DNA of 64,000 nt from a virus: the IMG/VR virus record IMGVR_UViG_3300029286_000030, one strand, 5' to 3'. The stretch's first letter is position 1. Every line of letters starts with the position of its first letter. The translations under genes were made by a program, and so were the position numbers. The notes under the pieces were generated by a model. The model had not been told where the DNA came from. It made no database searches and worked only from the letters and a program-made list of their open reading frames with translations. This document shows positions 29,870 to 59,582 of this stretch, piece after piece.

Positions 29870-31384
29870 TCACTCTAATATCATAGTTTCAATTTGTTTA
29901 ATAATTTCAATTGGTTCTTTTTCTATTAAAACAATTAGGTCCAATAGCTTTTCGGACCATCCAGCAATACAAACAACATTCTTTTCTCCTTCTGGGAAAA
30001 CAGTTGTTCCATATCCTGCAAGATCTACCAAATATAATTTAGTATTTGGATTAATATCTTTCAAATATTGGTGCCATAATTTTTGGAAGTCGTTGTTTGG
30101 ATTAATATCTTTCAAATATTGGTGCCATAATTTTTGGAAGTCGTTGTTTGGATTTGTATACATATTATATGTTTCAGAATTCCATAATTGGCAGTCAGTG
30201 AAGATTATTAATCTATCAAGATTTAATTTTTTTGCAATCATATATTCAATAATTTTAAATCCATTTGTTGAGCATCCGACATCTATGTCAGCGACTTGTG
30301 TTGCATTTTGAATAATACTTCTTTTAGATAGTTGTGCAATTGCAAAATCGTCCCCGAATGCTCCGCATATTGATTTATCGCATATCTTATTTGAAAGAGA
30401 CATTAAAACATCTCCAACTTCTTTATAAGACATTTTACTTTTATCTGATAATGCAGTTTGCATAGACCCAGAATGATCTGTTACTAACATAGTTGTTCCA
30501 ACTAAATGTGGAATATTAGTAGCACTTAATTCAACAGCATCTTCTAAAGCATCTAATACTGTAGATGCATTTGGATTATCATTTTCTTTAATAACCTTAT
30601 ATGCTGAATAAAATCTAAATGGATACATCTTGCTTTTTCTAATAATAGCTTCATTAGAAAGTTTTGGTAAATATAATTCAGTATCTACTCCAGTTTTTAA
30701 GAAATTATTTAAGTTTCTAATTGTTGCAAATATAGGCATCTTAGGAGCTATGTGTTCCCATGTTTCTTTTGTAGACCCATTAGTAGATATATATGTTTCC
30801 CAAGTTTCTGGAATAGCCATAGTTCTTGAATTAATTCTATCAAATAACATATCTTCTTCACTATCAAGTGGAGTTGGGTGCGCAAGTCTAAGAGCATCTC
30901 TTAATTTTACTTCACCATCTTTATCATATTTTGCTAATTGATATTCATCAAATCTATGGAACGCATCTGCCAAAGATAATTTGAGTTGTTTTGGAACTGA
31001 ATTATCAAAGTTCTTTAAATGATAAGCCAACGCTTCTGTTATTTCATCTGCTCTTCTTATAATATAATTAGCATACTTTCTAACATATGGTTTTGCTTCT
31101 GTGCAATTAGCTGCTTCAACTAAAATAGCAATTGGAACAGATCTTAAATATAAATCATTTCTTAAAAATACCGCAAGTTTTAATACATATTCTGGATCTT
31201 TCTTTAAAACAGTTTTAATAAGTTCAATAGTTTCGTTTGTTGTATCTCCATAGAACTTATCTTCTTTCATAAGCTGTGCTGCGCACATTAAGTATAATTT
31301 AACTTTATCTGATGGAACATATGCTAACGCTCCTTCTTTATTAGTTGTTTTTGAAACAATTTTTACAGGTTTATTAAATCTCAT
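29870..31384 (-). CDS. Ro60-like protein: TROVE domain + C-terminal vWA (MIDAS DHSGSM)
   Basis: vWA motifs LVTDHSGSM, LIIFTDCQ; N-terminal half shows Ro60-like blocks (LYLMCAAQLM..FYGD cf. Ro60 FLCFGSEGGTYY; LRLAHPTP cf. LRLSHLKP). Confidence 0.7.
   Translation of the reverse strand: MRFNKPVKIVSKTTNKEGALAYVPSDKVKLYLMCAAQLMKEDKFYGDTTNETIELIKTVLKKDPEYVLKLAVFLRNDLYLRSVPIAILVEAANCTEAKPYVRKYANYIIRRADEITEALAYHLKNFDNSVPKQLKLSLADAFHRFDEYQLAKYDKDGEVKLRDALRLAHPTPLDSEEDMLFDRINSRTMAIPETWETYISTNGSTKETWEHIAPKMPIFATIRNLNNFLKTGVDTELYLPKLSNEAIIRKSKMYPFRFYSAYKVIKENDNPNASTVLDALEDAVELSATNIPHLVGTTMLVTDHSGSMQTALSDKSKMSYKEVGDVLMSLSNKICDKSICGAFGDDFAIAQLSKRSIIQNATQVADIDVGCSTNGFKIIEYMIAKKLNLDRLIIFTDCQLWNSETYNMYTNPNNDFQKLWHQYLKDINPNNDFQKLWHQYLKDINPNTKLYLVDLAGYGTTVFPEGEKNVVCIAGWSEKLLDLIVLIEKEPIEIIKQIETMILE
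30050..30151. repeat. Perfect 51-bp tandem duplication (2 copies) inside Ro60-like gene, in frame (duplicates NPNNDFQKLWHQYLKDI)
   Basis: 30050-30100 identical to 30101-30151. Confidence 0.9.
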
Positions 31385-32295: not shown

Positions 32296-33120
32296 TCATA
32301 AATATATAATTTCATCATTTGATTTTTGATTACCAACAAAATTATTACTTTTTTCTATGTTTATATTGGCTTCTAGTGGTTGTAAATTTTGTAATTTCCA
32401 TCCTTTTTTTATTAACTGTTCTTCTGTTTTAAACCATGATAACGGTATAATATGATCGATATGCCAGTATGTTCCATAATTATTCCAACTCATTTCTGGG
32501 GTAAATTGTCTTTCTAAATGATTTTTTAATTCGATATTATTATATCCTAATGATATCTTCCATCCAACTTCCTTTTTACAACCAATATTCTTTAAGCTTT
32601 TATTCAGTGCGTTCCCAATACTATGATTTAGTTTTAATAGCGGGTTTGTTTTTCTTTTATTTAATATTTCTTTATTATGCTTTCTTTTATATTTATTTCT
32701 ATATATTTTTATTTTTTCTGGATGTTCTATACGAAATTTGGCAGATCGTTTTATTATAATTTCCTTTTGTTTTAAATATTTTTGGTGATTCTTTTCTTTA
32801 TTTTTAATTGTGTCTTTTTTAGTTTGTTCTTTTATTTTTTCTTTATTGTTTAGTTTATATTCTTTATCTTTATTTCTTTTTATTTCTCTGTTTATCTCTC
32901 GCCATTGCTTATTATATTCTTTTATTTTTAACTTATTATTAATTTTATATTTTCTATGCCTTAATTTTTCTTTTTCGTTATTAGTGAATCTATATAATTT
33001 ATTTTTTTCTACTAACTCTTTTTTATGTTTTATTCTATATCGTATTTCGCTTTCTCTCCTTTTGTCCTTATTAATCAAACGATATTTTTTATCATATTCT
33101 CTTTTTTCTTCTTTATTCAT
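32296..33120 (-). CDS. HNH endonuclease paralogue with long Lys-rich periodic N-terminal repeats (KYRxxNKEKI)
   Basis: HIDHIIPLSWF...NLQPLEANINIEKSN; 11-aa periodic basic repeats. Confidence 0.75.
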   Translation of the reverse strand: MNKEEKREYDKKYRLINKDKRRESEIRYRIKHKKELVEKNKLYRFTNNEKEKLRHRKYKINNKLKIKEYNKQWREINREIKRNKDKEYKLNNKEKIKEQTKKDTIKNKEKNHQKYLKQKEIIIKRSAKFRIEHPEKIKIYRNKYKRKHNKEILNKRKTNPLLKLNHSIGNALNKSLKNIGCKKEVGWKISLGYNNIELKNHLERQFTPEMSWNNYGTYWHIDHIIPLSWFKTEEQLIKKGWKLQNLQPLEANINIEKSNNFVGNQKSNDEIIYL

Positions 33121-33143
33121 AAGTATATTAGAACAAACTAGTA

Positions 33144-33953
33144 TTAAAACCTTCCGCCTGCTCCTCCTCCACTAAATCCTCCCGAATTTCCAAATCCACC
33201 AAATCCCCCAGATGAGCCTCCTCCAAACGAACTTCCACCAGATGAACTTCGACCAGATGAACTTCCACCAGATGAACTTCCACCAGATGATCTGCCAGGC
33301 GGTCTTCCAAATGATCCACCAATAATTGAACCACCAATTGATCCTCCACTAGAAGAATCATCGCTTATTATTATAATAAAAACAACAGCAACAATAAAAA
33401 TACAAAATATCATTAAAAAGAATACACCCGGATCCGATAAATCAATAGTACTAATTTTATCTGGAAGAAGTTCATTTGATTGCACATTATTTAAATCAGC
33501 AATTGCTAAAGTAAGTCCTGTATAAAAATCTCCTTTCTTAAAATTTGGATCAAAATCTTTTAATTGAATATCGCGTATCTCAATATCAGTAATCATTGTT
33601 TCCGCGCCTTTTGCAGTTGCAATAAAATATTCTCTATCTTTTACTGCTATAAGAATTACTAATCCATCAAATCTTCCTTTATTTCCTACTCCAAATTTAT
33701 TACCTAATTCAAGAGCATAATCAGAAATTGGTTTACCTTCGGTTGAATCAATTAACCATACGCCTATTTCAATATTAGAATCAGTTGAAACTTGTTTAAG
33801 TTGAAAATTAAGTTGTGATATTTGTTCAGTTGTTAATGTACCAGAATAATCATTCAAATAATTCGTAGGAATTGGAATGGAATCAATGCTTAACGAATAA
33901 GCACTGACCATCATTAATAATATTCCAATTATTATACATATTTTATTCAACAT
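33144..33953 (-). CDS. TPM-domain (TLP18.3/Psb32/MOLO-1-like) protein with TM and Gly/Ser-rich C-terminal tail
   Basis: LNDYSGTLTTEQISQL...GVWLIDS...NGLVILIAVKDREYFIATAKG; 4-nt overlap with lemA. Confidence 0.8.
   Translation of the reverse strand: MLNKICIIIGILLMMVSAYSLSIDSIPIPTNYLNDYSGTLTTEQISQLNFQLKQVSTDSNIEIGVWLIDSTEGKPISDYALELGNKFGVGNKGRFDGLVILIAVKDREYFIATAKGAETMITDIEIRDIQLKDFDPNFKKGDFYTGLTLAIADLNNVQSNELLPDKISTIDLSDPGVFFLMIFCIFIVAVVFIIIISDDSSSGGSIGGSIIGGSFGRPPGRSSGGSSSGGSSSGRSSSGGSSFGGGSSGGFGGFGNSGGFSGGGAGGRF
33180..33300. repeat. 15-bp tandem coding repeat (Gly/Ser-rich tail of TPM protein)
   Basis: ccagatgaacttcca-like units repeated about 5 times. Confidence 0.8.
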
Positions 33954-34524
33954 TGAAATCTACCACTGGGCTATCTTCTGATCCTGGCTTAGATTCATAA
34001 AATTTCTTTGGACTAAATCCAAACATGCCGGCCATTACATTTCCAGGAAATGTTTTAATAGCTGCATTATATGATTGTACTGATACATTATATTCTCCTC
34101 TAGCAAAACTTATACGATTTTCTGTTCCTTCTAAAGAAACCATTAAATCTTTATATGCTTGAGTTGCAGTTAGAGTTGGATATGCTTCAACTGTTACAAG
34201 TAATCTTGATATAGCAGAATCAAGTTGATTCGCTGCATCTACTTTCTGTTCTTGTGTTCCTGCACTTGCCCACGCACTACGCGCGTTAACTACTGCAGTT
34301 AATGTTGTTTGTTCAAAATTAGCTACACCCTTTACAGTTGAAACTAAATTTGGAATTAAATCAGCTCTTCGTTGATATTGCGCTTCTACAAGAGACCACT
34401 TTTGATCTGCTTCTAATCCTTTAGTAACAAATCCATTATAAGATCCCATGAAAAATAATGCAACCATACCAACAATTACTAATAAAATTACTAATACTAT
34501 TCCTATTGTTGTTCCTGCTCCCAT
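33943..34524 (-). CDS. lemA: LemA family membrane protein
   Basis: N-terminal TM; EAQYQRRADLIPNLVSTVKG signature. Confidence 0.88.
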   Translation of the reverse strand: MGAGTTIGIVLVILLVIVGMVALFFMGSYNGFVTKGLEADQKWSLVEAQYQRRADLIPNLVSTVKGVANFEQTTLTAVVNARSAWASAGTQEQKVDAANQLDSAISRLLVTVEAYPTLTATQAYKDLMVSLEGTENRISFARGEYNVSVQSYNAAIKTFPGNVMAGMFGFSPKKFYESKPGSEDSPVVDFNVE

Positions 34525-34574
34525 TCATTTCACCTTTACAAATTATATTAACCAAAACCCTTAAAAAGCTATGT

Positions 34575-36491
34575 TCATGAAAAAAATGATGCCAATGTTG
34601 ATTGCGAATCCTTTATAAAGTATGCAAGCTCGGCCCATACATTTTCAAGATTAATATCTGTTATCTTCATTTTATTCTTTTCAAACTCTTCAGCCGTACA
34701 ATATTTTTTATCTTTACCAACTCCAACTCCCCGAAGATTTGGAATTAAAAAATGTATTCCAGGCCCATACTTAGTTGAAATCTGTGCTTGAAGTTGTGAA
34801 GGCATTTTATAATCGGCAGCACTCTTTACACTAAATCTAATTTCTGCCAAAGATAAATCTTTTTTTAATAAATCATATACTGTATCTCTTAAATATGCTT
34901 CAGAGAATTTTACTCTACGCTCTTCTGTTATTTTAGGAACAAGCACTTCCCAAAACATTTTTCTACTCAAAGTGCTTAGGGATTTCTTTCTAACACCAAG
35001 ATTTTTAACTACAATTTTTCCTTCGTTGGTTCTATAAATATAATTTTTCTTAATAAACTTTTTTGGTTTATTAATATAATCATATTCATCCATCTCTGAA
35101 TCAGTTTCTTTATCTCCAACATTTCCTTTGAAAAACCACATGTCAGATATTTCAGCATCTATTGACATATCAAATTTATCATATGGAAATGGAACTGCAT
35201 CTTTTATTTCTTTTATTATATCCTGTTTAAGCTGTAACATCTTTTCTTTATTATCATATATATCAATTAGATATACAGAATCGGTATCAGTATATATTAC
35301 ATTATAGCCAGCATCTGCAAATCTCTTTCTAGCTAACTTTACCCATTGTCTTCCTAATCTAGTTACATCTGCAGCAGAAGTTCTATTATAAAGATGTGAG
35401 AATGATGGATTACCAAGTAACCCATATGCGGCATTCAATTGTATTTTTAATGAATATTCGCGTGGATCCTTTTCTTTCTTATATTGTAATCTCCATTCAT
35501 ACCATTTCTTAAATAACTGTTCAACTTTACCTTGAACTTTATTATTATAAACACCTTCAACATTAAACTTACCATTGCCATTCCAACCTTCTACAGATGG
35601 AGAAAATATATTACACTGATGCATTATACTTGGATATAGTGATGCAAAATCAAGACAGTATATTTTTCCAGAAAAATATTCACCTGCTGGAAAACTTACA
35701 TATCCACCACCATAAGACTGTTTATCTTTTACATTAGAATATTCTTCTTTTAAATCTAAAGATTTACAAATACTTTTATATGTGAATACAGCTGTTGAAC
35801 ATGATAAATATTTCTTTGAAGACACATCTTCTGGAATAACATATTCTTTAAAACTTGAAAAATAATCCTCAATCCATACATATAATTTTTTTGTAACTTC
35901 TAAATCTCTTAATGTGTAATCCTTTATCTTATTTGTTTCATCAATTGTCCATTGGTCGGTCTCTTTTTTTAATATATTATAATCAAAGTCTTCTATTTTA
36001 GCTGTGTCATCACTAACAATTCCAATTGTTCTTGATATAAAATCAAGAGAATGCCGTAATAGTAAATCATTAAGCATTCCTTTCTTTACTTTCATTGCAC
36101 TAGCACGTTTTTTTATAATCATCATAAGATCAATATTAATTTTTCCTTTAATACGAAATGTTGCATTTTGATCTTTTTTTACAATATCATCATATCCATT
36201 ATAATAAAGAACTTGATTATCATATCCTTCAAAAAATGTTTTCTGATGGAATCCACCAAGATTATTAAATCCAACTAAAAAATAATGTCTATTTATCATA
36301 TCTCTAATTTCTTTTTCATGATATAATAAGTAATACTTATCATCATCAAATGAATAACATCCAAACACTCTTAATTTGTGTGTTTGAGTTGGAGATCTAT
36401 ATTCTGCAGCAGTTTCAAGATCGTATATTAATACACCTTTAAATCTGTCTTCAACTTTAGGTTTTATAACTTCATCAGCCATTGAATGCAC
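34575..36491 (-). CDS. polB: Family B DNA polymerase, compact (638 aa) with 3'-5' exonuclease motifs
   Basis: Exo I YDLET; motif A DFASLYPSIM; motif B KIQLNAAYG; motif C YTDTDSVYL. Confidence 0.9.
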   Translation of the reverse strand: MHSMADEVIKPKVEDRFKGVLIYDLETAAEYRSPTQTHKLRVFGCYSFDDDKYYLLYHEKEIRDMINRHYFLVGFNNLGGFHQKTFFEGYDNQVLYYNGYDDIVKKDQNATFRIKGKINIDLMMIIKKRASAMKVKKGMLNDLLLRHSLDFISRTIGIVSDDTAKIEDFDYNILKKETDQWTIDETNKIKDYTLRDLEVTKKLYVWIEDYFSSFKEYVIPEDVSSKKYLSCSTAVFTYKSICKSLDLKEEYSNVKDKQSYGGGYVSFPAGEYFSGKIYCLDFASLYPSIMHQCNIFSPSVEGWNGNGKFNVEGVYNNKVQGKVEQLFKKWYEWRLQYKKEKDPREYSLKIQLNAAYGLLGNPSFSHLYNRTSAADVTRLGRQWVKLARKRFADAGYNVIYTDTDSVYLIDIYDNKEKMLQLKQDIIKEIKDAVPFPYDKFDMSIDAEISDMWFFKGNVGDKETDSEMDEYDYINKPKKFIKKNYIYRTNEGKIVVKNLGVRKKSLSTLSRKMFWEVLVPKITEERRVKFSEAYLRDTVYDLLKKDLSLAEIRFSVKSAADYKMPSQLQAQISTKYGPGIHFLIPNLRGVGVGKDKKYCTAEEFEKNKMKITDINLENVWAELAYFIKDSQSTLASFFS

Positions 36492-39306
36492 CTAATGTAC
36501 TATTAAATACATTCACTTTCGCAAAGTCCCCAAATAGTAATATGAGTTTATAATAATCTTTTATTACAAAATATTCTACTCCGTCAATTGAAGCAAACTC
36601 AATTCTATAATCTTGTTCAAGTTTATGCTTATCAAGTCTATCAATAATTGATGAAACTCCACGATTTTCTGGTTTATAATTACTATTAGCTATATAGTCG
36701 TGTAATTCTCCAACATATATTGTACCCTTCTTTCCTTTTTCTCTTACAAAATTATATATTGAAGATACAACTGCTTTCATTTCAAGATTCTCATTATCGA
36801 AACTTGCTTTAAGCCCAGCACTTAAAAACTTATTAACATCTGGATTATCAACAACTTTTTCAAAACTTCTTAAATTAATTGATTTGCATACTTCTAAATA
36901 ATGTTTTGCTTTATCAACAATTCTAACTGCATCATAATTATTATTAATTATATCATTCATATAATCAAGACATGCTAATCGCAATGCTGTTCCATTTAAG
37001 TGTTTATAACTATTCAATGAGCCACTCATAAATTTTCGAACACTTTCTACACTTGCTTTTTCAGCAAATGCTGCTATTGTATCAGCATATGTTTTATCAA
37101 ATGGAGTGTCCAAAAAAGCGCGTATTTGTGGGTCTCTTAACATTTTTGTAAATACAGGTGCCGCTTGTTTTCGTATATACTCTGTTTTGGCAAATAATAC
37201 ATCAAGTTCATCTTCTGTATATTTTTGTTTTCCACTAATACGATTAGTATCTGGATCAAAAACAATTAATCCTATTCTACTTCCAATTGCGGCAAAATTA
37301 CTTGTAATTGATTTTAAAGTTGAATCAAACTGTCGTACAATTTCACTCATTGATTCTGCTTTATCTGAAAATTCTTTTATTTCTTTTGGATTTCCTAAAA
37401 ATGTTATTGAAGATAATCCTTCACATGTTATACTTTTTTTACCAACATCAATATTTATTATACCCATTTCTAAGAAACTTAATAGTTTTCCATATAAAGA
37501 TTTAGGTTGTTCTTCTTCAAGTTCATCAATATATACTGGCATTACATATCTATGTAATGTTCCACGATTAATTTCATCACCAGTTGCAAACCCCATTAAA
37601 TTTTGTATTGTTGTTCTAGCTGCATTATGCCCCATTCTTGTTGATATAGTTGTTTTTCCAGCTTTAGTGCCTGTATAAATAACTTTATGATTATTATAAA
37701 ACTGATATGTAAAAAAATCAGCTGTAGAAATATCTGGTATTAAAAAATCACTTTCCATTGCTAATTTAACTCTATTATCAATATTTAACCCAAGTGAAAC
37801 ATGATCCTCGATAAGTTTCTTTGTGTCTTCATTACTCAAAGACTTTACATCATCTTCATCAATACCAGAACCTAAACATCTTAAGTATGAATTAATATTT
37901 TTCATATCTTCAGTTACAATCCAATCAAAAAGAGTTGAATCTTGTGACATTTTTTCAGCTTTCTTCTTATCCATACCAAAATTAACTGCCATCTTTATTA
38001 ATATTTTTGGTTCTGGTGGGTGTTCTAAAAACAAATCATATAATACGTGATTAGTTTTTAATGGAGTTACAAACTTTAATTGGTCTCCTTCTCTTACTTC
38101 AGATTCATCTAAACAAAGGAGATATCTAAAAGGATTACCAACAAGAATTCTTGTTTCAAATAAAGTATATACTGGTGTATTAGTTATAACATCGTGTTCT
38201 CCAAGAAGTGTATTATTTCCTTGGTAAACATTTTTCATAATAACAATTTTAGCTTTTTCTGCTTTCTTTGTAAATTTAACTTTCTTGTCATCATATCTAA
38301 AATTATTATATTGACATTTGAAACATGGATCTTTTGTTCCTGTTTTTTTACAATAATTAAAAATTTCACCACAATTAAATTTCTTTAAAGTTCCTGCTTT
38401 AAATGAATCGTCCCATCCTTCAAATTCTTTTTGTTCCATTCCTTGAAATTTGCAAAAAGATTCTCTTAATTCTTTGTTTCCAGTATAATTAGTATAAACT
38501 GCTAAATTTTTAATTAAAATACTATGCCTATCTCCTTCTGGAAACTTTTCAGTTAATGCTACAGTATCAAAAAATGGGCATTTTCTTTTTGCTTCAACTT
38601 CTGTACTAATAGTTTCAGAATCATTCATTTTAGAAGTAATTGGGTTGTCCTTATATAAATTATTAATAAGATCTATAAATTCAAAATTATCATTATATCC
38701 TCTATAATCTAACCATCTTGATAATTTTTTAGCACTAAGATTAAATGTTCCTATTACTCTAGAAACTCTTGATAAATTAAATGTTGCAGAATCAACTCCA
38801 AATTTATCAACTAAATGTTGCTTTAATATTTTAAGTTTTTGTTTCCACTCTTCTCTATTTTCTTTTGTTATAACTACTGCTTTAAAAGGAACTAATAAAT
38901 GATATCCTCTTCCACTAAATGCCATAGATGCGGCAATATTATTATTATTAAATCTTAATAATAAATCAGTTGCTTGTTTTTCTATTTCTTCAATAGATTG
39001 TTTTTCGTTGTGCGCATCAAAATCACACATTATACATCCAAGCCGTTTTACATCTTCATCTCCACCCTTAAGATGTTCTCTTTCATTAAGGCCTGCAGAA
39101 ATATTCATTCCCTTATCAATATTATCTTCAATAGTACTCAAAAATTCGTCTTTAGAATGAACAAAGAAATTTCGAGCTGGAGAATTATGTTTATTATTAT
39201 ATAATCTTAATTCTGTCTCTGACTCGTGGTGAAGGAGATCGTAATATTTCTCCGCATCTTCGCGACAATAATTATTGTTCGTTTCCACTAAAATCGTCCC
39301 CATCAT
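36475..39306 (-). CDS. Primase-helicase fusion: N-terminal archaeo-eukaryotic primase (prim-pol) domain + C-terminal P-loop (SF3/D5-like) helicase
   Basis: AEP motifs CDFDAHN and SGRGYHLLVPF; Walker A YTGTKAGKTTIS; 17-nt overlap with polB. Confidence 0.8.
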   Translation of the reverse strand: MMGTILVETNNNYCREDAEKYYDLLHHESETELRLYNNKHNSPARNFFVHSKDEFLSTIEDNIDKGMNISAGLNEREHLKGGDEDVKRLGCIMCDFDAHNEKQSIEEIEKQATDLLLRFNNNNIAASMAFSGRGYHLLVPFKAVVITKENREEWKQKLKILKQHLVDKFGVDSATFNLSRVSRVIGTFNLSAKKLSRWLDYRGYNDNFEFIDLINNLYKDNPITSKMNDSETISTEVEAKRKCPFFDTVALTEKFPEGDRHSILIKNLAVYTNYTGNKELRESFCKFQGMEQKEFEGWDDSFKAGTLKKFNCGEIFNYCKKTGTKDPCFKCQYNNFRYDDKKVKFTKKAEKAKIVIMKNVYQGNNTLLGEHDVITNTPVYTLFETRILVGNPFRYLLCLDESEVREGDQLKFVTPLKTNHVLYDLFLEHPPEPKILIKMAVNFGMDKKKAEKMSQDSTLFDWIVTEDMKNINSYLRCLGSGIDEDDVKSLSNEDTKKLIEDHVSLGLNIDNRVKLAMESDFLIPDISTADFFTYQFYNNHKVIYTGTKAGKTTISTRMGHNAARTTIQNLMGFATGDEINRGTLHRYVMPVYIDELEEEQPKSLYGKLLSFLEMGIINIDVGKKSITCEGLSSITFLGNPKEIKEFSDKAESMSEIVRQFDSTLKSITSNFAAIGSRIGLIVFDPDTNRISGKQKYTEDELDVLFAKTEYIRKQAAPVFTKMLRDPQIRAFLDTPFDKTYADTIAAFAEKASVESVRKFMSGSLNSYKHLNGTALRLACLDYMNDIINNNYDAVRIVDKAKHYLEVCKSINLRSFEKVVDNPDVNKFLSAGLKASFDNENLEMKAVVSSIYNFVREKGKKGTIYVGELHDYIANSNYKPENRGVSSIIDRLDKHKLEQDYRIEFASIDGVEYFVIKDYYKLILLFGDFAKVNVFNSTLGAFNG

Positions 39307-39502
39307 TTAATTCAACATAATCAATGATTGAACTTATTCGTATTCCGCGTTTTTGATTTTTTAGATCGATCCCCTCCACAAACTCATTACTAATCGAAGT
39401 AACCCGTAGAGTATATATACTATTTTGTTCAAACCCTTTTGAAACCATTAATTTATAACGGCGCCCTATCTCTAATACCATATCCTTCACCATCCTTTTC
39501 AA
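39272..39502 (-). CDS. Hypothetical protein (76 aa)
   Basis: ORF only. Confidence 0.3.
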   Translation of the reverse strand: MKRMVKDMVLEIGRRYKLMVSKGFEQNSIYTLRVTSISNEFVEGIDLKNQKRGIRISSIIDYVELNDGDDFSGNEQ

Positions 39503-39567
39503 TTATCCTTCTTTTTTTAAAAGAAGTTATTAAATAATATTACCACAAATCTCTTTTTAAAGCTATG

Positions 39568-40257
39568 TTATTTTTCGAATTTTCCACCCTTACTTAAATT
39601 TTCATACCACCATAAAGGTTGAAGATTAGTATGATGAAAGCACTTCTTTTGTTCTTCATCTTGACTTAAATCAAAAGAACAACAAGGGATAATGTGATCG
39701 ATGTGCCATCCTTTAGATCCATAATTATCCCAAGACATATTATCTTTGAATTGTTTTTCTAAATGAGTTCGGCATTCCCTAATTGTGCACCCAAGTAATT
39801 CTGTTGTATGAAAAGCCTTTTTACCATATCCAAAAATTAGTGCTCTATGGATTCTACGCATTATATTAGATTTTAATTTATAATTAATGTTTGTTTTCAT
39901 TTTATTAGCATTATATATACGCCGTTTCATATTTATTATTTCTCTATTATTTTTTACATATTCTTGATATTTTTTTCGTATATGGTCTATATTTTTTAAT
40001 ATATATTGGGTTCTTTTTATTTTTCGATCTTCTTTTATGCTACTATTTTGGAGATATATTAGCTGTCTTTTTTTAATATAATTTTTATTTTTTAAATCAT
40101 AGATTTTTCTTTTTATTTTTCGATCCTCTTTTATATTTGGTTGTTGTAAATATTGTCTTATTTTTTCCTTATTTTTAATTGCATATTTTTTACTTTGTTC
40201 TCTTATTTTTTCTTTATTTTTTATATACCAAATTTTTTTATATTCTTTTATATCCAT
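39568..40257 (-). CDS. HNH endonuclease paralogue with Lys-rich repeats
   Basis: GWHIDHIIPCCSFDL...CFHHTNLQPLWWYENLSKGGKF. Confidence 0.8.
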   Translation of the reverse strand: MDIKEYKKIWYIKNKEKIREQSKKYAIKNKEKIRQYLQQPNIKEDRKIKRKIYDLKNKNYIKKRQLIYLQNSSIKEDRKIKRTQYILKNIDHIRKKYQEYVKNNREIINMKRRIYNANKMKTNINYKLKSNIMRRIHRALIFGYGKKAFHTTELLGCTIRECRTHLEKQFKDNMSWDNYGSKGWHIDHIIPCCSFDLSQDEEQKKCFHHTNLQPLWWYENLSKGGKFEK

Positions 40258-46436: not shown

Positions 46437-46520
46437 TGCAGGGGAACGGATTCGGACCGTTGAAAGCACTAAGCTACAGGATCTTAAGTCCTGCCCCTTT
46501 GACCGCTCGGGAACCCCTGC
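46437..46520 (-). tRNA. tRNA-Leu (anticodon UAA), class II with long variable arm
   Basis: Minus-strand fold: acceptor GCAGGGG/CCCCUGC, 3-bp D-stem with GG in loop, anticodon stem CAGGA/UCCUG with loop CUUAAGA (U33, anticodon UAA, G37), 15-nt variable arm, T-stem AACGG/CCGUU, discriminator A; T-loop reads UCCGAAU (C at position 55, noncanonical); no encoded CCA. Confidence 0.55.
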
Positions 46521-49625: not shown

Positions 49626-50798
49626 TCATCCTTTCACCACCGCTAATGGACTCAATTTTGTTTTTATTTTTACCAAATCTTTTTGATTTTCCATAACAAC
49701 ATCAATATCTTTATAACTTCCCGGAGCTTCGTCTAAATTTTCTATATTCCGTACGGAATGTAATATCCCCAAATCATTTAATTTTTTCTGCTCATCTGCG
49801 AGATTTAAAGTTCTCTGTGCGACTTTTCTACCCATTTTTCTACCTGCACCATGAGAACAAGATTTAAATGACCACATATTTCCGAGCCCCTCGACAATAT
49901 AACTTGAAGTTCCCTGCGACCCAGGAATTAATCCAATTTCTCCTAATTGAGCTGATGTGGCACCTTTTCTATGAACCCAAACATCTTTGCCAAAATGTTT
50001 TTCGTTTACTGCATAATTATGGTTAATATCATATTCCCATGTTATATTTGCACCTAAATGTCTATTAAAACTTTCTTTAATAAAATCCATCATAAATGTT
50101 CTATTATTTTTAGCAAACTCCATACAATAATTCATTTCTGAAATATAATTTGATCCTTCTTGAGAATCTATTGGTAATGATGCTAAATCCCATTCTGCAG
50201 GTATATTTGAATACCATGTTTTATTTAATTCTTTTGCAAGATTATTATAATATTCGCATACTTTAAACCCCAAATTTCTTGAACCGGAGTGTATCATTGC
50301 ATAAATAAATCCATCATCCCCTTTTTGAATTTCACAAAAATGATTACCAGAACCTAAACTTCCAACTTGATGTGTTGCTGATTTATATTCGCTTTCCACA
50401 ATTCCGCCTGGCAATATAGGTGATTTTGGCATTCTATCTTCATTGGATTCTTCTCTGTGTTTAAATCCAACTGGAACATCTTTACGGATATCCGTAAGGA
50501 TTTTAACAATATCAGTTTTATTAATTTCTTTAAGATCTGTTTTTATTGAATGCATCCCACACGATACGTCCGAACCTACTGCATGAGGAATTATCATATT
50601 TGTTGTTGCAAAAACTCCACCTATAGGAATTCCAAATCCGCTATGCGCGTCAGGCATTAATGCAACATGAGAAAAAATAAATGGTAAATTGGCAGCATTT
50701 TTTGCTTGCTGTAATGCTTCGTTTTCCAAATCAGTAGCCCATACTTTAATTGGAACTCTTTCAGTAGTAATATTAATCATAATCCACACGCATCCCAA
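49626..50798 (-). CDS. rtcB: RtcB-family RNA ligase (short, 390 aa)
   Basis: ALMPDAHSGFGIPIGGV, GSDVSCGMH, SGSRNLG, CSHGAGRKMGRK motifs. Confidence 0.82.
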   Translation of the reverse strand: MGCVWIMINITTERVPIKVWATDLENEALQQAKNAANLPFIFSHVALMPDAHSGFGIPIGGVFATTNMIIPHAVGSDVSCGMHSIKTDLKEINKTDIVKILTDIRKDVPVGFKHREESNEDRMPKSPILPGGIVESEYKSATHQVGSLGSGNHFCEIQKGDDGFIYAMIHSGSRNLGFKVCEYYNNLAKELNKTWYSNIPAEWDLASLPIDSQEGSNYISEMNYCMEFAKNNRTFMMDFIKESFNRHLGANITWEYDINHNYAVNEKHFGKDVWVHRKGATSAQLGEIGLIPGSQGTSSYIVEGLGNMWSFKSCSHGAGRKMGRKVAQRTLNLADEQKKLNDLGILHSVRNIENLDEAPGSYKDIDVVMENQKDLVKIKTKLSPLAVVKG

Positions 50799-51547
50799 TT
50801 AATTAATGTATCTAAACGTTTAAAAAGGTTTGTTTTATCCTTTTTATATTCGTGTTGCCAAACTATTATTGTTTCTAAATTATGCTCTGCTTTTATTTTA
50901 GCTATTCGCATTTCATCATTATACCATATCATTGAGACTTCTTTTCCATTAATCTGCTCATCGTGCTTATATTTTTCTGGATTTGCGTGCCAATAATCTC
51001 CATAAAATTCTATAATCAAATTTAAATTCTCTATAAAAATATCGGGTCTTGCCCAGCTTCTATCAGAAAATCGTAATGCGGGGTGCTGTACAGCAGTTGG
51101 GCATATATTTTGTAATTCTCTAAAAAAATTATCTTCTAATTTACTATGATTAGAAGAATACTTCCCTTTTACTATTGCCCCATTTCTCCAAGATTCTTTC
51201 ATTTTATCGCTTCGTAATATTCTCTGTTTATTATCAGTAAATTGTTTTAATGCACTCGCTCGTTGAAATTGTTTAAATTCATTTGAACGTGTTAATCCAG
51301 TAGACTTTGTAATTACTTTATTTCTATATTCTGGAATCTTCCATAACGATTTAGATATCTTAGACAATTTTATTTTAGTCGCATTAATACTTTCTTTAGA
51401 ATGATGTTTTCCATAAAATGGATTGTTCTTTCCAGTTCTATCTCTACATTTATTACAATACCCGAATTTACAATTACGTGATATTGGTTTTTCACACGTT
51501 ATACATGTTTTCATAAAGTATTCACTATTTCTTTTAAATATCTCCAT
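50777..51547 (-). CDS. Freestanding homing-endonuclease-like protein: Zn-ribbon + NUMOD3-like motif (GKNNPFYGKHHSKES) + C-terminal restriction-endonuclease-like domain (IIEFYGDYWHANPEKY)
   Basis: Motif matches to phage homing-endonuclease modules; overlaps rtcB start by 22 nt; start trimmed to Met43 (alternative Met54 at 51514). Confidence 0.55.
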   Translation of the reverse strand: MEIFKRNSEYFMKTCITCEKPISRNCKFGYCNKCRDRTGKNNPFYGKHHSKESINATKIKLSKISKSLWKIPEYRNKVITKSTGLTRSNEFKQFQRASALKQFTDNKQRILRSDKMKESWRNGAIVKGKYSSNHSKLEDNFFRELQNICPTAVQHPALRFSDRSWARPDIFIENLNLIIEFYGDYWHANPEKYKHDEQINGKEVSMIWYNDEMRIAKIKAEHNLETIIVWQHEYKKDKTNLFKRLDTLINWDACGL

Positions 51548-51842
51548 AATCCCACGCATATGGTTTATGATTTTTATAAAAATGTTTAAATCCTTCTTCA
51601 CTATCTGCGTATACTTCTGTTTCAAAATCTCCCCATACTTTACCATATTTTGGGTGTTCTGCTTTAAAATCATTTATCCATTCGAAATAATCCTCGTGTA
51701 CTTCTGCAGTTATAATCCAACCATCTTTATGTATTTTTGTATATTCTTTTCCATCTAAATTATATGGTTCGACCTCGCTAGCATTAAGAGTTAGTGCGCC
51801 ATTCTCAGATTTAAAATCTACCCCAAATTTTTTTGTAATCAT
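51534..51842 (-). CDS. Hypothetical protein (102 aa)
   Basis: ORF. Confidence 0.45.
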   Translation of the reverse strand: MITKKFGVDFKSENGALTLNASEVEPYNLDGKEYTKIHKDGWIITAEVHEDYFEWINDFKAEHPKYGKVWGDFETEVYADSEEGFKHFYKNHKPYAWDYGDI

Positions 51843-55712: not shown

Positions 55713-56597
55713 TTATTCTTCGTCAAAAATAGATCCAAGGCCGTTCCAGAACTCTTTTTCTCGTAATTTTCGTATATGCATTTCTGGTTTTTTAAAGGTT
55801 TTTTTAATAATAGATTTATTAATAGGACTTGGTTTTGGTCTTATTTTAGCATATTCATTCAATTCTTGTTTTATATCAAATTTTTCATTTGAATGAACTC
55901 TTTCCCGAGAAATCTTTGGGCGCTTAACGGGCTCTATATCAATTATAGGTTGAATAACTTTGGGGTTAATAGGAGATAGCATCATCTTATCCAAAAAAGG
56001 ATACATCTCTTCTTCAGGAATTTCTTTTCTACTATGAGGGACATATGTGCCCGCATTTATTTTTTCAATATTTCTAATTTGTTCATTCATTCGTTCCTGT
56101 TTATGGCTTGGAACTCTGGGTCCAACAATATCTATTCCTTCATAATCTTTATTATATCTAAATGCATCCATAAATGAAGTATCAATTACTGCCGAATTTG
56201 CATAATCTTGTGGTAAACTTAACAAGCTGTTAGGCGCCACACGATTTTCTTTTGGAAAAATTATAGGATTAAATGAAGTTGGTGGTATATGTTTTGTTGT
56301 TTTTTTATCCTGTTGACCCATTACTGCATCAAGAATATCCGATTGATCTAAAAGTTCTGATTGAGATACTCGTGTAACTCCTTCTGTATGTATTTGTGGC
56401 GGCCCAGGAAATAATGATTTTTTTAATTTAGACCAAGCTTTTTTACTTGGTGTATTTTCATTTTGATATTTTTCTGCAATTTTTGCTCTAAGTTTAAAAC
56501 GATCCTCTTTAGGTGCTCTTTCAATTTCTTCAATATCATCAAGAGAAAATTTTTCTTCTTCATCTTCTACAATTTCATCTTCTTCCATAATTAGCAC
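55713..56597 (-). CDS. Hypothetical acidic protein (294 aa)
   Basis: ORF. Confidence 0.5.
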   Translation of the reverse strand: MLIMEEDEIVEDEEEKFSLDDIEEIERAPKEDRFKLRAKIAEKYQNENTPSKKAWSKLKKSLFPGPPQIHTEGVTRVSQSELLDQSDILDAVMGQQDKKTTKHIPPTSFNPIIFPKENRVAPNSLLSLPQDYANSAVIDTSFMDAFRYNKDYEGIDIVGPRVPSHKQERMNEQIRNIEKINAGTYVPHSRKEIPEEEMYPFLDKMMLSPINPKVIQPIIDIEPVKRPKISRERVHSNEKFDIKQELNEYAKIRPKPSPINKSIIKKTFKKPEMHIRKLREKEFWNGLGSIFDEE

Positions 56598-56739
56598 TCC
56601 TTACAATCGCACGCACACCACCATGGAAATGGACCGCACTTACGTTCTTTTTCTTTTGGTAATTCAGTAATTGCCTGTGCGCAGGAATCACATATTAAAC
56701 TCATTTTTGGTGCAATCTTTCCGCAATACATACATCTAT

Positions 56740-57495
56740 TCATAATGAATTTATCCCCTCTTGTAATTCATTAATCATTGATTTTTTCTTTTCAATATAT
56801 CTTTTATTTGAGTCATACATCTTTTTTCTAACTTCTGGGCGTTGATAATATTCTTTGTAATATTCCTTTTTATGTTGTTTTGTTTCTGGTTTTTTATCAT
56901 ATTCTTGCCTACTAAATTTTAATCTTAAATCATTTTTTATTTCTTTTAATTCTTTAAGTTTTTCGGGGGTAAATTCAGTTCCTTCTCTCCATCCTGGATA
57001 AAAATCATCCATAGATTTTTCAAATTTTTCTTGTTTTGATAATGCAGCTTGGTTTTTATTTTTGTAATAATATTCAGATATTTTTTCTTTATATTCTGGA
57101 TGTTGTATAATATATTCTCTACGATTTTTATACATTCTTTCTTTAACTTCTGGCCGGTTATAATAATGTTTTTGATATGCTTTAACTTCAGGGGATTGTT
57201 GATATTCTCTATTTTTTATTTCAGAAATAGACCTGCTAATTTCTTTTTCATTAGTATCGTTATAAGGAAATATCATTTCTTTTCTTAATTCTAATGGTTG
57301 TTGATATATAATTGGATTTAACAAACTTTCTCTTTCATCAATTGGAGTTGGTGTAAGTAATTTATCATAATCAGTAAAAGATCTATCTAAAATACCCATT
57401 GATTTTAACGTATTAACATCCAAGTTTGATTTTGGTTGAGGTTTCTGTTGCTCAACAATATCATCAGCCATTTGATCTAGATCCATTTCATTCAT
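56740..57495 (-). CDS. Hypothetical Lys/Glu-rich protein (251 aa) with N-terminal MNEMDLDQMADDIVEQ leader
   Basis: ORF; shared leader motif. Confidence 0.5.
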   Translation of the reverse strand: MNEMDLDQMADDIVEQQKPQPKSNLDVNTLKSMGILDRSFTDYDKLLTPTPIDERESLLNPIIYQQPLELRKEMIFPYNDTNEKEISRSISEIKNREYQQSPEVKAYQKHYYNRPEVKERMYKNRREYIIQHPEYKEKISEYYYKNKNQAALSKQEKFEKSMDDFYPGWREGTEFTPEKLKELKEIKNDLRLKFSRQEYDKKPETKQHKKEYYKEYYQRPEVRKKMYDSNKRYIEKKKSMINELQEGINSL

Positions 57496-57794: not shown

Positions 57795-57817
57795 AATATA
57801 TTTAAGGAATTGCTTAC

Positions 57818-58815: not shown

Positions 58816-58820
58816 AAAAA

Positions 58821-59453: not shown

Positions 59454-59475
59454 ATAATTAAATAGATATTTCTTA

Positions 59476-59492: not shown

Positions 59493-59522
59493 ATATTATA
59501 CCCTAATAATAATTCAATGTTT

Positions 59523-59544: not shown

Positions 59545-59582
59545 ATTCGGAAATTCCTAATAGTTCAATTTATGAGAATATT

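What the first reader, a model, noticed from the sequence alone, without database searches (positions are those of the whole stretch)
34575..39306. Replication module: compact 638-aa PolB overlapping an AEP prim-pol/SF3 helicase fusion
PolB has all exonuclease and polymerase motifs in only 638 aa, which is phi29-like and much shorter than cellular PolBs. Motif C reads YTDTDS. The upstream gene, with a 17-nt overlap, fuses an archaeo-eukaryotic primase domain (DFDAHN; SGRGYHL) to a P-loop helicase (GTKAGKTT). This is the hallmark of self-replicating MGEs and viruses. Whether PolB is protein-primed (TPR insertions) or uses the prim-pol is open. No terminal protein, Orc1/Cdc6 or PCNA is seen in the window.
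Basis: partly seen in the sequence, partly recalled or inferred. Interest (0 to 1): 0.6.

Follow-up and report, generated by a model that had tools for sequence, protein, structure and literature searches.

The report
Viral primase-helicase plus compact PolB cassette
This is a real three-gene DNA-replication cassette (small protein, primase fused to a ring-helicase-type ATPase, compact proofreading DNA polymerase B), most likely from an uncultivated large DNA virus; it copies DNA from short primers, not from a terminal protein as phage phi29 does, and only its helicase part is of an undescribed kind.

Summary
Both ORFs and every quoted motif are present. The 638-aa protein is a genuine family-B polymerase, but of the RNA/DNA-primed kind. 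It lacks the N-terminal domain and has no room for TPR1 or TPR2. Its fold matches Thermococcales, T4-like and halovirus PolBs, not phi29. It ends in a canonical PIP box (QSTLASFF), so clamp-dependent elongation is likely.

The 943-aa protein begins with a confirmed AEP primase fold. Here it gave nothing against three SF3 proteins and a 196-205-column match to MCM (hhalign 80-85%). It belongs to a large family (about 1,000 clusters at 50% identity) with no Pfam or PHROG match to the members scanned.

The order 76-aa ORF, primase-helicase, PolB is kept in 16 of the 18 related contigs that extend past the primase-helicase gene. The likely overlap is 8 nt (ATGGCTGA), not 17.

The surroundings look like a large uncultivated virus rather than a small integrated element or a host replisome. 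This point is not settled.

Verdict: a new variant of a known kind, of moderate interest.

The parts
39272..39502 (-). Conserved 76-aa ORF, first gene of the cassette; function unknown, possibly a small DNA-binding or accessory protein. Its stop overlaps the start of the primase-helicase gene.
   Evidence: No Pfam, PHROG or NCBIfam hit. A homologue (40-74% identity) lies directly upstream of the primase-helicase gene in 16 related loci.
36475..39306 (-). Primase-helicase fusion gene: 943 aa as listed, probably 937 aa from GTG 39288.
   Evidence: Eleven full-length homologues at 40-91% identity; exhaustive profile search finds 1037 relatives.
38647..39273 (-). AEP (archaeo-eukaryotic primase / PrimPol) catalytic domain, aa 12-220. 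Motif I D95-F-D97-A-H99, motif II S131-GRGYH136, motif III D172.
   Evidence: AF2 model pLDDT 70-89 in this stretch. Foldseek against PDB: S-2L PrimPol AEP domain 6zp9 (E 1.3e-5, TM 0.73), CAPP, RepB', LigD polymerase domain, PriS. Motif residues invariant. phrog_2478 'DNA polymerase/primase' E 5.6e-5. Homologue P0129 carries PF01896.
38302..38604 (-). Helical linker with a conserved Cys cluster (C243; FNC312GEIxNYC319...C328xxC331), a probable zinc-binding module following the primase.
   Evidence: Cys residues invariant or nearly invariant in 12 homologues; modelled as helices. Zinc binding is inferred, not tested.
37696..38247 (-). N-terminal part of the helicase module, aa 354-537: a three-strand beta unit followed by a helical domain.
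   Evidence: Secondary structure of the model. This is where the widespread standalone proteins of about 600 aa begin to align (profile positions about 345 onward). Resemblance to the MCM N-terminal tier is conjecture.
37222..37695 (-). AAA+ ATPase core, aa 538-695: Walker A GTKAGK551TT, Walker B D594-E595, hairpin-region motif LLSFLEMGxxNIDVGK, sensor-1 FLGN639P, putative arginine finger GSR677IG.
   Evidence: Residues invariant. hhalign against BJ1 virus MCM 80% over 196 columns; against a haloarchaeal MCM profile 84.6%, E 7e-6, 205 columns. An RFC-like clamp loader matches only 71 columns from Walker A to B. SF3 controls 0.1-1.8%. The AF2 model is unreliable here (pLDDT 23-40).
36532..37221 (-). 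C-terminal helical domain plus a small alpha/beta, winged-helix-like end, aa 696-925.
   Evidence: Model pLDDT 75-93; conserved YRHxRGxALKLA motif in the wider family. Weak Foldseek hits to winged-helix repressors (ranks 43 and 46); not significant.
34575..36491 (-). Compact family-B DNA polymerase gene: 638 aa as listed, probably 635 aa from ATG 36482.
   Evidence: PF00136 E 6e-16. AF2 pLDDT 93. Foldseek against PDB: KOD, 9N and Tgo polymerases, E about 1e-23, TM 0.65. At least 446 homologues of about 600-650 aa.
35847..36434 (-). 3'-5' proofreading exonuclease domain, aa 20-215, starting almost at the N-terminus. The N-terminal domain of cellular PolBs is absent.
   Evidence: D24, E26, D91, Y192 and D196 conserved. 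The palm starts at profile position 225 against residue 398 in the P. abyssi PolB chain.
34581..34604 (-). C-terminal PIP-box-like clamp-binding motif Q630-STLASFF637.
   Evidence: Read from the sequence. A canonical Qxx[LIMV]xx[FYW][FYWL] is present in 9 of 107 family members, including the window and its closest relatives. Most of the other C-termini listed show short hydrophobic tails such as KNIFDF or NLxxWGL. Clamp binding is inferred.
36475..36482 (-). ATGGCTGA start/stop overlap between primase-helicase and PolB; suggests translational coupling.
   Evidence: The same 8-nt overlap occurs in L001 and L002.

Best explanation
The region is the core DNA-replication cassette of an uncultivated double-stranded DNA virus with a large genome. 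Less likely, it belongs to some other large extrachromosomal element.

Three co-directional, overlapping genes are probably transcribed together: a conserved 76-aa protein, a primase-helicase and a PolB.

Proposed mechanism (inferred):
1. The AAA+ part of the 943-aa protein assembles into a ring that unwinds the parental duplex, in the manner of MCM or other ring helicases.
2. Its covalently attached AEP domain lays down short primers on the exposed strands.
3. The compact PolB extends those primers and proofreads with its own 3'-5' exonuclease.
4. A sliding clamp, bound through the C-terminal PIP box, holds the polymerase on the template. The clamp would come from the host or from elsewhere in the element's genome.

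Shown here: the identity and intact catalytic residues of the PolB exonuclease and polymerase domains; the AEP fold; AAA+-type motifs; conserved gene order; absence of protein-priming insertions.

Inferred: ring-helicase activity, primer hand-off, clamp use, viral origin, and the location of the origin.
For: PolB identity and type:
- Pfam and NCBIfam hits.
- PDB sequence hits only to RNA-primed PolBs: archaeal PolBs, Pol alpha, Pol II.
- A pLDDT-93 model matching Thermococcales PolBs and viral RNA-primed PolBs.
- hhalign 95.6% to the phage Elbi PolB against 11% to phi29.
- Motif spacing leaves no room for TPR1 or TPR2.
- PIP box at the C-terminus.

Primase: AEP fold and invariant motifs.

ATPase: invariant Walker A, Walker B, sensor-1 and arginine. 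Best extended match is to MCM.

Cassette: the order 76-aa ORF, primase-helicase, PolB is kept in 16 of the 18 loci that extend past the primase-helicase gene, across 45-95% identity. The genes overlap by 8 nt.

Viral context:
- 63 of 71 ORFs lie on one strand across about 60 kb, with 92.5% coding.
- No ribosomal or other core cellular markers were seen in the scans.
- Five homing-endonuclease-like genes.
- Relatives carry inteins in PolB and NrdD.
- PolB family members sit on IMG/VR viral contigs of up to 116 kb, next to phage-type helicase, primase, clamp loader and methyltransferases. Others sit next to 7-deazaguanine genes.
- RtcB relatives occur on 39 IMG/VR contigs of up to 168 kb.
- Syntenic orthologues in the closest relative range from 39% to 96% identity. 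In L072 and L073 the PolB is swapped for a 50%-identical allele between flanks that are 95-99% identical.
- Among GTDB species genomes, matches were recovered only on four short contigs, in MAGs of inconsistent taxa.
Against: - No capsid or terminase gene was identified in the 64 kb. Single PHROG hits to a 'portal protein' family (E 3e-8) and a 'virion structural protein' family (E 7e-18) could not be assigned to ORFs.
- Many neighbours look cellular: UPP synthase, GT4, LemA, TPM, SIMPL, Band 7, PNP, PRTase, PfkB.
- Close relatives of the window (above 60% PolB identity) were not found in IMG/VR.
- The helicase core is poorly modelled (pLDDT 23-40). No helicase family in Pfam or PHROGs matches, and the MCM link is only 80-85% by hhalign. 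A generic AAA+ clamp loader already reaches 60% over the Walker A-B stretch.
- No clamp or clamp loader was found in the window.
Confidence: 0.62

Rival explanations
1. The window is part of a small cellular chromosome, for example a DPANN archaeon such as a Pacearchaeote. The cassette would then be either an old, fixed, virus-derived insertion or the cell's own replicative primase-helicase-polymerase set, a non-orthologous replacement of MCM, PriSL and PolB/PolD.
For: - Cell-like neighbours: UPP synthase, GT4, LemA, TPM, SIMPL, Band 7, nucleotide-salvage enzymes, RtcB, ERCC4, giant surface-type ORFs.
- Uniform GC of about 29% with no island boundary at the cassette.
- Conserved chromosomal neighbourhood in relatives.
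- One family member is deposited under a Pacearchaeota MAG (MAH50056.1).
- Close relatives of the window are absent from IMG/VR.
- No capsid or terminase gene identified.
Against:
- About 60 kb of one-strand coding with no core cellular genes.
- Five homing endonucleases.
- Orthologue identities of 39-96% within one syntenic block, and a PolB allele swap between near-identical flanks.
- More distant PolB relatives sit in plainly phage-like replication and DNA-modification modules.
- Several of the 'cellular' genes have strong PHROG families.
Confidence: 0.2
2. One reading: a small self-replicating mobile element (casposon-, pipolin- or plasmid-like) integrated in a host genome. It would carry a phi29-like or protein-primed PolB and an AEP-SF3 primase-helicase of the D5 / pRN1 ORF904 type.
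For: - A short PolB without an N-terminal domain, next to an AEP-NTPase fusion.
- Walker A to B and B to sensor-1 spacings of about 43-44 aa resemble SF3 helicases (compared from general knowledge).
- Two paralogous HNH genes bracket the block 32296-40257.
Against: - No TPR1 or TPR2, phi29 match only 11%, and fold matches to RNA-primed PolBs only.
- No integrase, Cas1 or terminal protein in the scans. No att-like direct repeats beyond the repeats inside the HNH paralogues.
- The bracketing HNH genes are missing or replaced in the 90%-identical relative while the cassette and its neighbours stay in place.
- SF3 controls negative.
- Flanking genes are syntenic with the cassette across relatives, so there are no element borders.
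Confidence: 0.05
3. The cassette belongs to a large plasmid or other non-viral extrachromosomal element (Borg-like or megaplasmid-like) that carries its own primase-helicase and PolB.
For: The points for a non-cellular origin listed under the best explanation, together with the lack of an identified capsid or terminase gene. The element carries many metabolic and membrane genes.
Against: - No partition, conjugation or plasmid-replication families were seen in the Pfam or PHROG scans.
- tblastn of the primase-helicase against 50,697 phage records also found nothing, so the databases are uninformative either way. The plasmid collection was not searched.
- Relatives of PolB and RtcB are in collections predicted to be viral.
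Confidence: 0.1

Closest known systems
Bacillus cereus prophage phBC6A51 BC1863 ('BcMCM', an AEP primase-MCM fusion), followed by its DNA polymerase gene BC1864
   Same: One polypeptide with an N-terminal AEP domain and a C-terminal AAA+ helicase-type ATPase of about 1000 aa, with the polymerase gene immediately downstream on the same strand. The AEP domains align (hhalign 46.5%, E 2e-4, motifs I-III).
   Different: The downstream polymerase there is family A, here family B. The ATPase parts show no extended similarity (1.5%, Walker A only). BC1863 is annotated as an MCM-domain protein, whereas the window protein has no Pfam hit.
Archaeal and viral MCM helicases (e.g. Halorubrum virus BJ1 ORF35; haloarchaeal MCM)
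   Same: Walker A, Walker B, the conserved stretch between Walker B and sensor-1, the sensor-1 'NP' and the following arginine motif align over 196-205 columns (80-85%, E about 1e-5). A helical domain and a small winged-helix-like end follow the core.
   Different: No PF00493 hit and no MCM among PDB sequence hits. Walker A to B spacing is about 43 aa, shorter than I recall for MCM. The N-terminal tier is not demonstrably the MCM OB/Zn domain. Membership is not established.
AEP-SF3 primase-helicases (pRN1 ORF904, poxvirus D5-like, cyanophage S-2L PrimPol, P4 alpha helicase part)
   Same: The same functional logic, primase fused to a hexameric-helicase-type NTPase. The AEP fold is closest to S-2L PrimPol and RepB'. 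Motif order is A, B, then sensor-1 Asn.
   Different: The helicase-module profile shows no similarity to ORF904, S-2L PrimPol or P4 alpha (0.3%, 0.08%, 1.8%). No SF3 or D5 Pfam or PHROG family matched.
Compact RNA/DNA-primed PolBs of cyanophages (Anabaena phage Elbi, Nostoc phage N1). PMC7544198 places Nostoc-phage PolBs in bacterial group G3; its largely metagenomic sister group is B9.
   Same: About 630 aa, with the exonuclease motif close to the N-terminus and the same motif spacing (A to B 63 against 68 aa). Profile match 95.6% over 436 columns. These are the best-covered tblastn hits among GenBank phages.
   Different: Only about 24% identity. Motif C is YTDTDS here, without the extra glutamate that the paper describes for G3, B10 and Pol epsilon. 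Assignment to B9 or any other named group could not be tested: MAH50056, the accession of homologue P0080, does not occur in the paper's held supplements.
phi29-type protein-primed PolB (and by extension piPolB and casposon PolB)
   Same: Short enzyme without the N-terminal domain; motifs A, B and C are shared by the whole family.
   Different: No TPR1 or TPR2. Similarity limited to 63 columns (11%). Not recognised among the top fold matches. No terminal protein gene adjacent. piPolB and casposon sequences were not compared directly.
HelPrimPolB group (SF3 helicase + PrimPol + PolB in one polypeptide; PMC7544198)
   Same: The same three activities are linked physically or genetically.
   Different: Here there are two polypeptides, in the order primase, then ATPase, then a separate PolB. 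According to the paper that group has divergent motif C and KxY, whereas these are canonical here (YTDTDS, KKNY). No sequence comparison was possible.

Membership tests
Family B DNA polymerase (PF00136) | Polymerase motifs A (DxxSLYPS), B (KxxxNSxYG), C (YxDTDS) and KxY | tested here: met
   Present at residues 281, 349, 400 and 481 and conserved in 107 homologues. Pfam 58.7 bits against a cut-off of 23.
Family B DNA polymerase (PF00136) | 3'-5' exonuclease motifs ExoI (DxE), ExoII and ExoIII (YxxxD) | tested here: met
   D24/E26, D91 and Y192/D196 are invariant or nearly invariant.
Family B DNA polymerase (PF00136) | Overall exonuclease + palm/fingers/thumb fold | tested here: met
   pLDDT 93 model. 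Foldseek E about 1e-23 and TM 0.65 to KOD, 9N and Tgo polymerases.
Cellular-type PolB (archaeal B1-B3, Pol II) | N-terminal domain of about 130 aa preceding the exonuclease domain | tested here: not met
   ExoI lies at residue 24. The palm starts at profile position 225 against residue 398 in the P. abyssi PolB chain. All full-length intein-free homologues listed are about 600-680 aa.
Protein-primed PolB (phi29-like) | TPR1 insertion between motifs A and B | tested here: not met
   A to B is 68 aa against 134 in phi29.
Protein-primed PolB (phi29-like) | TPR2 insertion between motifs B and C | tested here: not met
   B to C is 51 aa against 71 in phi29. hhalign places a gap in the query where phi29 carries extra residues.
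Protein-primed PolB (phi29-like) | Adjacent terminal-protein gene and inverted terminal repeats | tested here: inconclusive
   No terminal-protein-like hit in Pfam or PHROG scans of the neighbours. The genome ends are not in the window, so terminal repeats cannot be tested.
AEP superfamily (archaeo-eukaryotic primase / PrimPol) | Catalytic motifs I (DxD), II (sGxGxH) and III (hD) | tested here: met
   D95/D97, S131-H136 and D172 are invariant in 12 homologues.
AEP superfamily (archaeo-eukaryotic primase / PrimPol) | AEP catalytic fold | tested here: met
   Foldseek: 6zp9 (S-2L PrimPol) E 1.3e-5, TM 0.73; RepB' TM 0.72; CAPP, LigD polymerase domain, PriS.
AEP superfamily (archaeo-eukaryotic primase / PrimPol) | Primase and/or polymerase activity | not testable with these tools
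   Needs biochemistry.
Superfamily 3 helicase | Walker A, Walker B and motif C (Asn) in compact spacing | tested here: met
   K551, D594/E595 and N639; spacings 43 and 44 aa. The feature is shared with other AAA+ clades.
Superfamily 3 helicase | Detectable homology to an SF3 family (D5, P4 alpha, ORF904, VirE and similar) | tested here: not met
   hhalign 1.8%, 0.3% and 0.08% to P4 alpha, ORF904 and S-2L PrimPol. No Pfam, PHROG or NCBIfam family. The controls were single sequences, so sensitivity is limited.
MCM family (PF00493) | AAA+ core with MCM-type Walker B, hairpin region, sensor-1 'NP' and arginine finger | tested here: inconclusive
   hhalign 80% (BJ1 MCM) and 84.6% (MCM profile) over about 200 columns. 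No Pfam MCM hit. A generic clamp loader reaches 60% on the Walker A-B stretch alone.
MCM family (PF00493) | N-terminal OB-fold/Zn tier and C-terminal winged helix | tested here: inconclusive
   The model shows a beta unit at aa 354-415 and a small C-terminal alpha/beta end, but no significant fold match to MCM. The core is poorly modelled.
Integrated mobile element (casposon, pipolin, provirus) | Integrase or Cas1, flanking direct repeats, and empty sites in relatives | tested here: not met
   No integrase seen in the scans. Only repeats internal to the HNH paralogues. Flanking genes are co-conserved with the cassette.
Tailed virus (Caudoviricetes) genome | HK97-fold capsid, portal and terminase genes | tested here: inconclusive
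   None assigned in the 64 kb. Weak unassigned PHROG hits: 'portal protein' 3e-8 and 'virion structural protein' 7e-18. The window is only part of the contig.

The most novel reading that the evidence does not exclude
The window could be a piece of a small archaeal (DPANN-type) chromosome rather than a virus. In that case this virus-derived cassette (AEP fused to an MCM-like AAA+ ATPase, plus an N-domain-less PolB with a PIP box) would be the cell's only replicative primase, helicase and polymerase: a wholesale non-orthologous replacement of the archaeal replisome.

A milder form of the same idea also stays open. The helicase module may be the founding member of a large, unannotated, MCM-related lineage of viral replicative helicases.
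Probability: 0.07. Interest if true: 0.85.

Novelty: new variant of a known kind. Interest (0 to 1): 0.42.

Why it matters
A primase-helicase gene followed by a polymerase gene is a familiar viral design, and compact RNA-primed PolBs are already known in cyanophages. The module as a whole is therefore not a surprise.

Three points do have value:

1. The ATPase half belongs to a big family: 1037 cluster representatives at E ≤ 0.001 and 601 at E ≤ 1e-10. It occurs as standalone proteins of about 600 aa and in several fusions. None of the 42 members scanned matched a PHROG family, their Pfam hits were weak and scattered, the family profile found no PDB sequence below E = 0.05, and the window's protein has no NCBIfam hit. 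Its best link is to MCM. A structure and an activity test would define a new group of replicative helicases and bear on how MCM-like motors spread among viruses.

2. The cassette marks a lineage of uncultivated elements with large genomes. These carry RtcB, Ro60, giant ORFs, inteins and many homing endonucleases. Their host is unknown; a canonical PIP box hints at a PCNA-type clamp.

3. PolB alleles only 50% identical are exchanged between otherwise 95-99% identical genomes. This is a clear example of replacement of an essential replication gene.

Tried and rejected
- Exact look-ups of the window's PolB, primase-helicase and RtcB in the assembly index found nothing. The source contig could not be identified.
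- The first GTDB genome scan with window-specific peptides found nothing.
- tblastn of the primase-helicase against 50,697 phage records gave no match. The IMG/VR scan for it found none.
- PDB sequence searches with the primase-helicase, as a single sequence and as two profiles, gave only noise or generic P-loop hits.
- Pfam and PHROG scans of 42 members of the helicase-module family gave nothing usable: two weak BrxL_ATPase hits at E 0.004.
- The AF2 model of the fusion protein, built from only 12 sequences, left the ATPase core unmodelled. Both prediction slots were used before the deeper alignment A4 existed, so no better model could be made.
- The afdb50 fold library was unavailable.
- The Kazlauskas et al. 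supplements held as text contain neither MAH50056 (the accession of homologue P0080) nor the word Pacearchaeota, so the PolB could not be placed in a named group.
- The Rfam scan of the window returned no family, not even for the ARAGORN tRNA-Leu.
- The promoter and terminator consensus scan was below chance expectation and uninformative.
- I considered that the PolB might be the B7 (Pol II-like) group that PMC7544198 reports in Woesearchaeota and Pacearchaeota. This is not supported. The family lacks the N-terminal domain, the recovered GTDB matches were only four short contigs in inconsistent taxa, and its best phage matches are the cyanophage PolBs. It was not formally excluded.

Full report
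**Observation**

All quoted motifs are present.

- In the polymerase: ExoI D24xE26, ExoII D91, ExoIII Y192xxxD196, motif A DFASLYPS (281), motif B KIQLNAAYG (349), motif C YTDTDS (400), KKNY (481).
- In the upstream protein: DFDAH (95), SGRGYH (131), GTKAGKTT (546).
- These residues are invariant or nearly invariant in 107 PolB homologues and 12 primase-helicase homologues. They are not chance matches.

The 17-nt overlap follows from taking the first GTG as the start. The sequence reads AATGGCTGA at the junction, and the 90%-identical relative has an 8-nt overlap. The biological overlap is therefore probably ATGGCTGA, the classic arrangement for translational coupling. The primase-helicase probably starts at GTG 39288, as its closest homologues begin MEQNNNYC and METINKY.

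**The polymerase**

Pfam DNA_pol_B scores 58.7 bits against a cut-off of 23. NCBIfam and PDB sequence searches hit only RNA/DNA-primed enzymes: E. coli Pol II, archaeal PolB1 and PolB3, Pol alpha.

The AlphaFold model is confident (pLDDT 93).
- Against the PDB it matches Thermococcales PolBs, with E about 1e-23 and TM 0.65.
- Among viral predicted structures it matches an unnamed 575-aa viral protein (A0A516LVA3, 37% identity, TM 0.82/0.90). T4-like, halovirus and giant-virus PolBs follow.
- No phi29-type enzyme was recognised in the top 50 of either list.

The family profile aligns with the 630-aa PolB of Anabaena phage Elbi over 436 columns (95.6%). It aligns with phi29 PolB only over motifs B-C (11%). 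Motif spacing is 68 and 51 aa, against 134 and 71 in phi29. There is no room for TPR1 or TPR2.

The enzyme is short because the N-terminal domain of cellular PolBs is missing. The palm begins at profile position 225, against residue 398 in the Pyrococcus abyssi PolB chain. The C-terminus, QSTLASFF, is a canonical PIP box. It is found in 9 of 107 family members, including the window and its closest relatives. Most of the other listed C-termini show short hydrophobic tails such as KNIFDF or NLxxWGL. By general knowledge these resemble clamp-binding peptides of replicative polymerases.

The polymerase is a primer-dependent, proofreading and probably clamp-tethered replicase, not a protein-primed one.

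**The primase-helicase**

No Pfam or NCBIfam family matches. PHROGs gives a weak 'DNA polymerase/primase' hit over aa 66-192. One homologue carries PF01896.

The model of aa 12-220 (pLDDT 70-89) has the AEP fold. Its best PDB matches are the S-2L PrimPol AEP domain (E 1.3e-5, TM 0.73), CAPP, RepB', the LigD polymerase domain and PriS. The primase call is therefore confirmed at fold level. A conserved Cys cluster (C312, C319, C328, C331) follows the AEP domain.

The P-loop region was modelled poorly (pLDDT 23-40), so its class had to be judged from sequence profiles.
- An exhaustive profile search found 1037 relatives. Most align only with positions about 345-920. They are standalone proteins of about 600-700 aa or carry other N-terminal fusions. 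The helicase module is thus an independent and widespread unit.
- Its consensus runs TNxKTGKT ... DEIQE..LLxxxExGxxxxxKGK......FxGNPK ... AFGSRIA ... YRHxRGxALKLA.
- Of 42 members scanned, none matches a PHROG family. Pfam gives only weak scattered hits, including two to BrxL_ATPase.
- Against three SF3 proteins the profile gives nothing: P4 alpha 1.8%, pRN1 ORF904 0.3%, S-2L PrimPol 0.08%.
- Against the MCM of Halorubrum virus BJ1 it gives 80% over 196 columns.
- Against a profile of 26 haloarchaeal MCMs it gives 84.6%, E 7e-6, over 205 columns running from Walker A through sensor-1 and beyond.
- A generic AAA+ control, an RFC-like clamp loader, reaches 60% but only over the 71 columns from Walker A to Walker B.

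I conclude that the module is an AAA+ ATPase. Its closest tested relative is MCM. 'SF3' is not supported, and membership in the MCM family is not established either.

**The cassette**

Local tblastn over 22 related loci shows the order 76-aa ORF, primase-helicase, PolB, all on one strand. Eighteen of these loci extend past the primase-helicase gene, and 16 of them carry PolB directly downstream. This holds across 45-95% primase-helicase identity. The small upstream ORF is therefore part of the unit, although nothing is known about it.

The nearest described analogue of the architecture is the Bacillus cereus prophage gene BC1863, an AEP-MCM fusion directly followed by a DNA polymerase gene. 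That polymerase is family A. Only the AEP parts align (46.5%).

**What carries the cassette**

The 64 kb are 92.5% coding, and 63 of 71 ORFs lie on one strand. Identified contents:
- Enzymes and cell-like proteins: RtcB, Ro60/TROVE, ERCC4, NUDIX, nucleotide-salvage enzymes, envelope-related genes.
- Two ORFs of 2362 and 2501 aa.
- Five homing-endonuclease-like genes.
- No ribosomal or other core cellular genes were seen.

Evidence from relatives:
- Some carry inteins in PolB and NrdD.
- More distant PolB family members sit on IMG/VR contigs of up to 116 kb, beside phage-type helicase, primase, clamp loader and methyltransferases. Others sit beside 7-deazaguanine genes.
- RtcB relatives at 51-59% identity lie on 39 IMG/VR contigs of up to 168 kb.
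- Within the syntenic block shared with the closest relative, orthologue identity ranges from 39% to 96%.
- In L072 and L073 the primase-helicase and LemA are 95-99% identical to the window, but PolB is only 50% identical. That is an allele replacement typical of viral mosaicism.
- Among 185,579 GTDB species genomes, matches were recovered on only four contigs of 3-10 kb, in MAGs labelled Bacilli, Thermotogaceae and Rhodobacter. This looks like mis-binned mobile DNA.

Against a virus:
- No capsid or terminase gene was identified.
- Many neighbours look cellular.
- Close relatives of the window are not in IMG/VR.

I rate a large uncultivated virus or virus-like element at about 0.6-0.7, a cellular (DPANN-like) chromosome at about 0.2, and a small integrated element at about 0.05. 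For the last reading there are no borders, no integrase and no empty sites.

**Mechanism**

The proposed mechanism is inferred from these identities.
1. The AAA+ ring unwinds the duplex.
2. The tethered AEP domain primes.
3. PolB extends and proofreads.
4. A PCNA-type clamp, encoded elsewhere or supplied by the host, holds PolB through the PIP box.

An 822-bp gap at 59454-60275 is a candidate origin about 20 kb from the cassette. Gene orientation and GC skew flip there, and nested inverted repeats flank a 22%-GC core. This is unproven.

**Novelty**

The design and the polymerase type are known. The new elements are the unannotated, MCM-like helicase family and the lineage that carries it. I rate the finding a new variant of a known kind, with moderate interest.

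Noticed in passing
window 59454-60275: An 822-bp non-coding gap where both gene orientation and GC skew flip. It holds nested inverted repeats (59974-59998/60286-60310 and 60035-60074/60211-60250) around a 22%-GC core, two 74-nt direct repeats (59581, 59726; 77% identical) in a 37%-GC stretch, and four tandem 9-mers AATGAAGNN (59799-59835). It is a candidate replication origin and/or an ncRNA cluster. Rfam found nothing.
   Followed up: partly
L072 3803-5716 and L073 8519-10432, compared with window 34575-36491: In two metagenomic contigs the primase-helicase (95%) and LemA (95-99%) are nearly identical to the window, but the PolB between them is only 50% identical. An essential replication gene has been replaced by a distant allele of the same family.
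   Followed up: partly
window 32296-33120 and 39568-40257 (also 60836-61519, 61543-61869, 50777-51673): Two paralogous HNH endonuclease genes with Lys-rich repeat N-termini bracket the block LemA-TPM-PolB-primase-helicase. They share a 61-nt stretch at 89% identity. Both are absent or replaced in the 90%-identical relative L001. Three more homing-endonuclease-like genes lie elsewhere, one (NUMOD3 plus a Vsr-like end) directly upstream of RtcB.
   Followed up: partly
P0004, P0008, P0009, P0012, P0036, P0052, P0098; L032 7461-10598; L004 3154-6279: Several PolB homologues of about 1030 aa, and the neighbouring NrdD genes, carry inteins (LAGLIDADG_3, Intein_splicing). The window's PolB is intein-free.
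   Followed up: no
window 29870-31384 and 49626-50798: A Ro60/TROVE protein with a vWA domain and a short (390-aa) RtcB ligase are encoded in the same genome. No Y-RNA-like gene was detected by Rfam at gathering thresholds. RtcB relatives are common on IMG/VR contigs of up to 168 kb.
   Followed up: partly
window 3335-10423 and 11895-19400 (also 203-3286): Giant ORFs of 2362 aa (no Pfam hit) and 2501 aa (one NUDIX domain at aa 2102-2226), plus a 1027-aa protein with Kelch and beta-propeller-like hits. Function unknown. L004 has a partly similar ORF of more than 1700 aa.
   Followed up: no
window 55713-59453: Four consecutive ORFs share acidic N-termini of the type M(D/N)EMDLDQMADD. They form a local paralogous family with no database match.
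   Followed up: no
window 46437-46520: ARAGORN calls a tRNA-Leu(UAA). The Rfam tRNA model did not reach its gathering score on the same window, so the tRNA is divergent or doubtful.
   Followed up: no
L007 3878-9656; L008 2534-9639; L005 1-1705: More distant PolB family members sit directly downstream of 7-deazaguanine (queuosine/archaeosine-type) biosynthesis genes (PTPS and GTP cyclohydrolase I in all three; QueC, QueE-like and QueF in L007). L008 also has a faint TGT-like hit, the family of DpdA. This suggests that those relatives modify their DNA. No such genes were found in the window.
   Followed up: no
one search hit list (P0138-P0284): The helicase module occurs with several alternative N-terminal extensions (proteins of 800-1240 aa in which the match starts at residue 370-610). 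The AEP part occurs alone or with other C-termini (P0209, P0228, P0259, P0271). This indicates domain shuffling around the unannotated ATPase.
   Followed up: no
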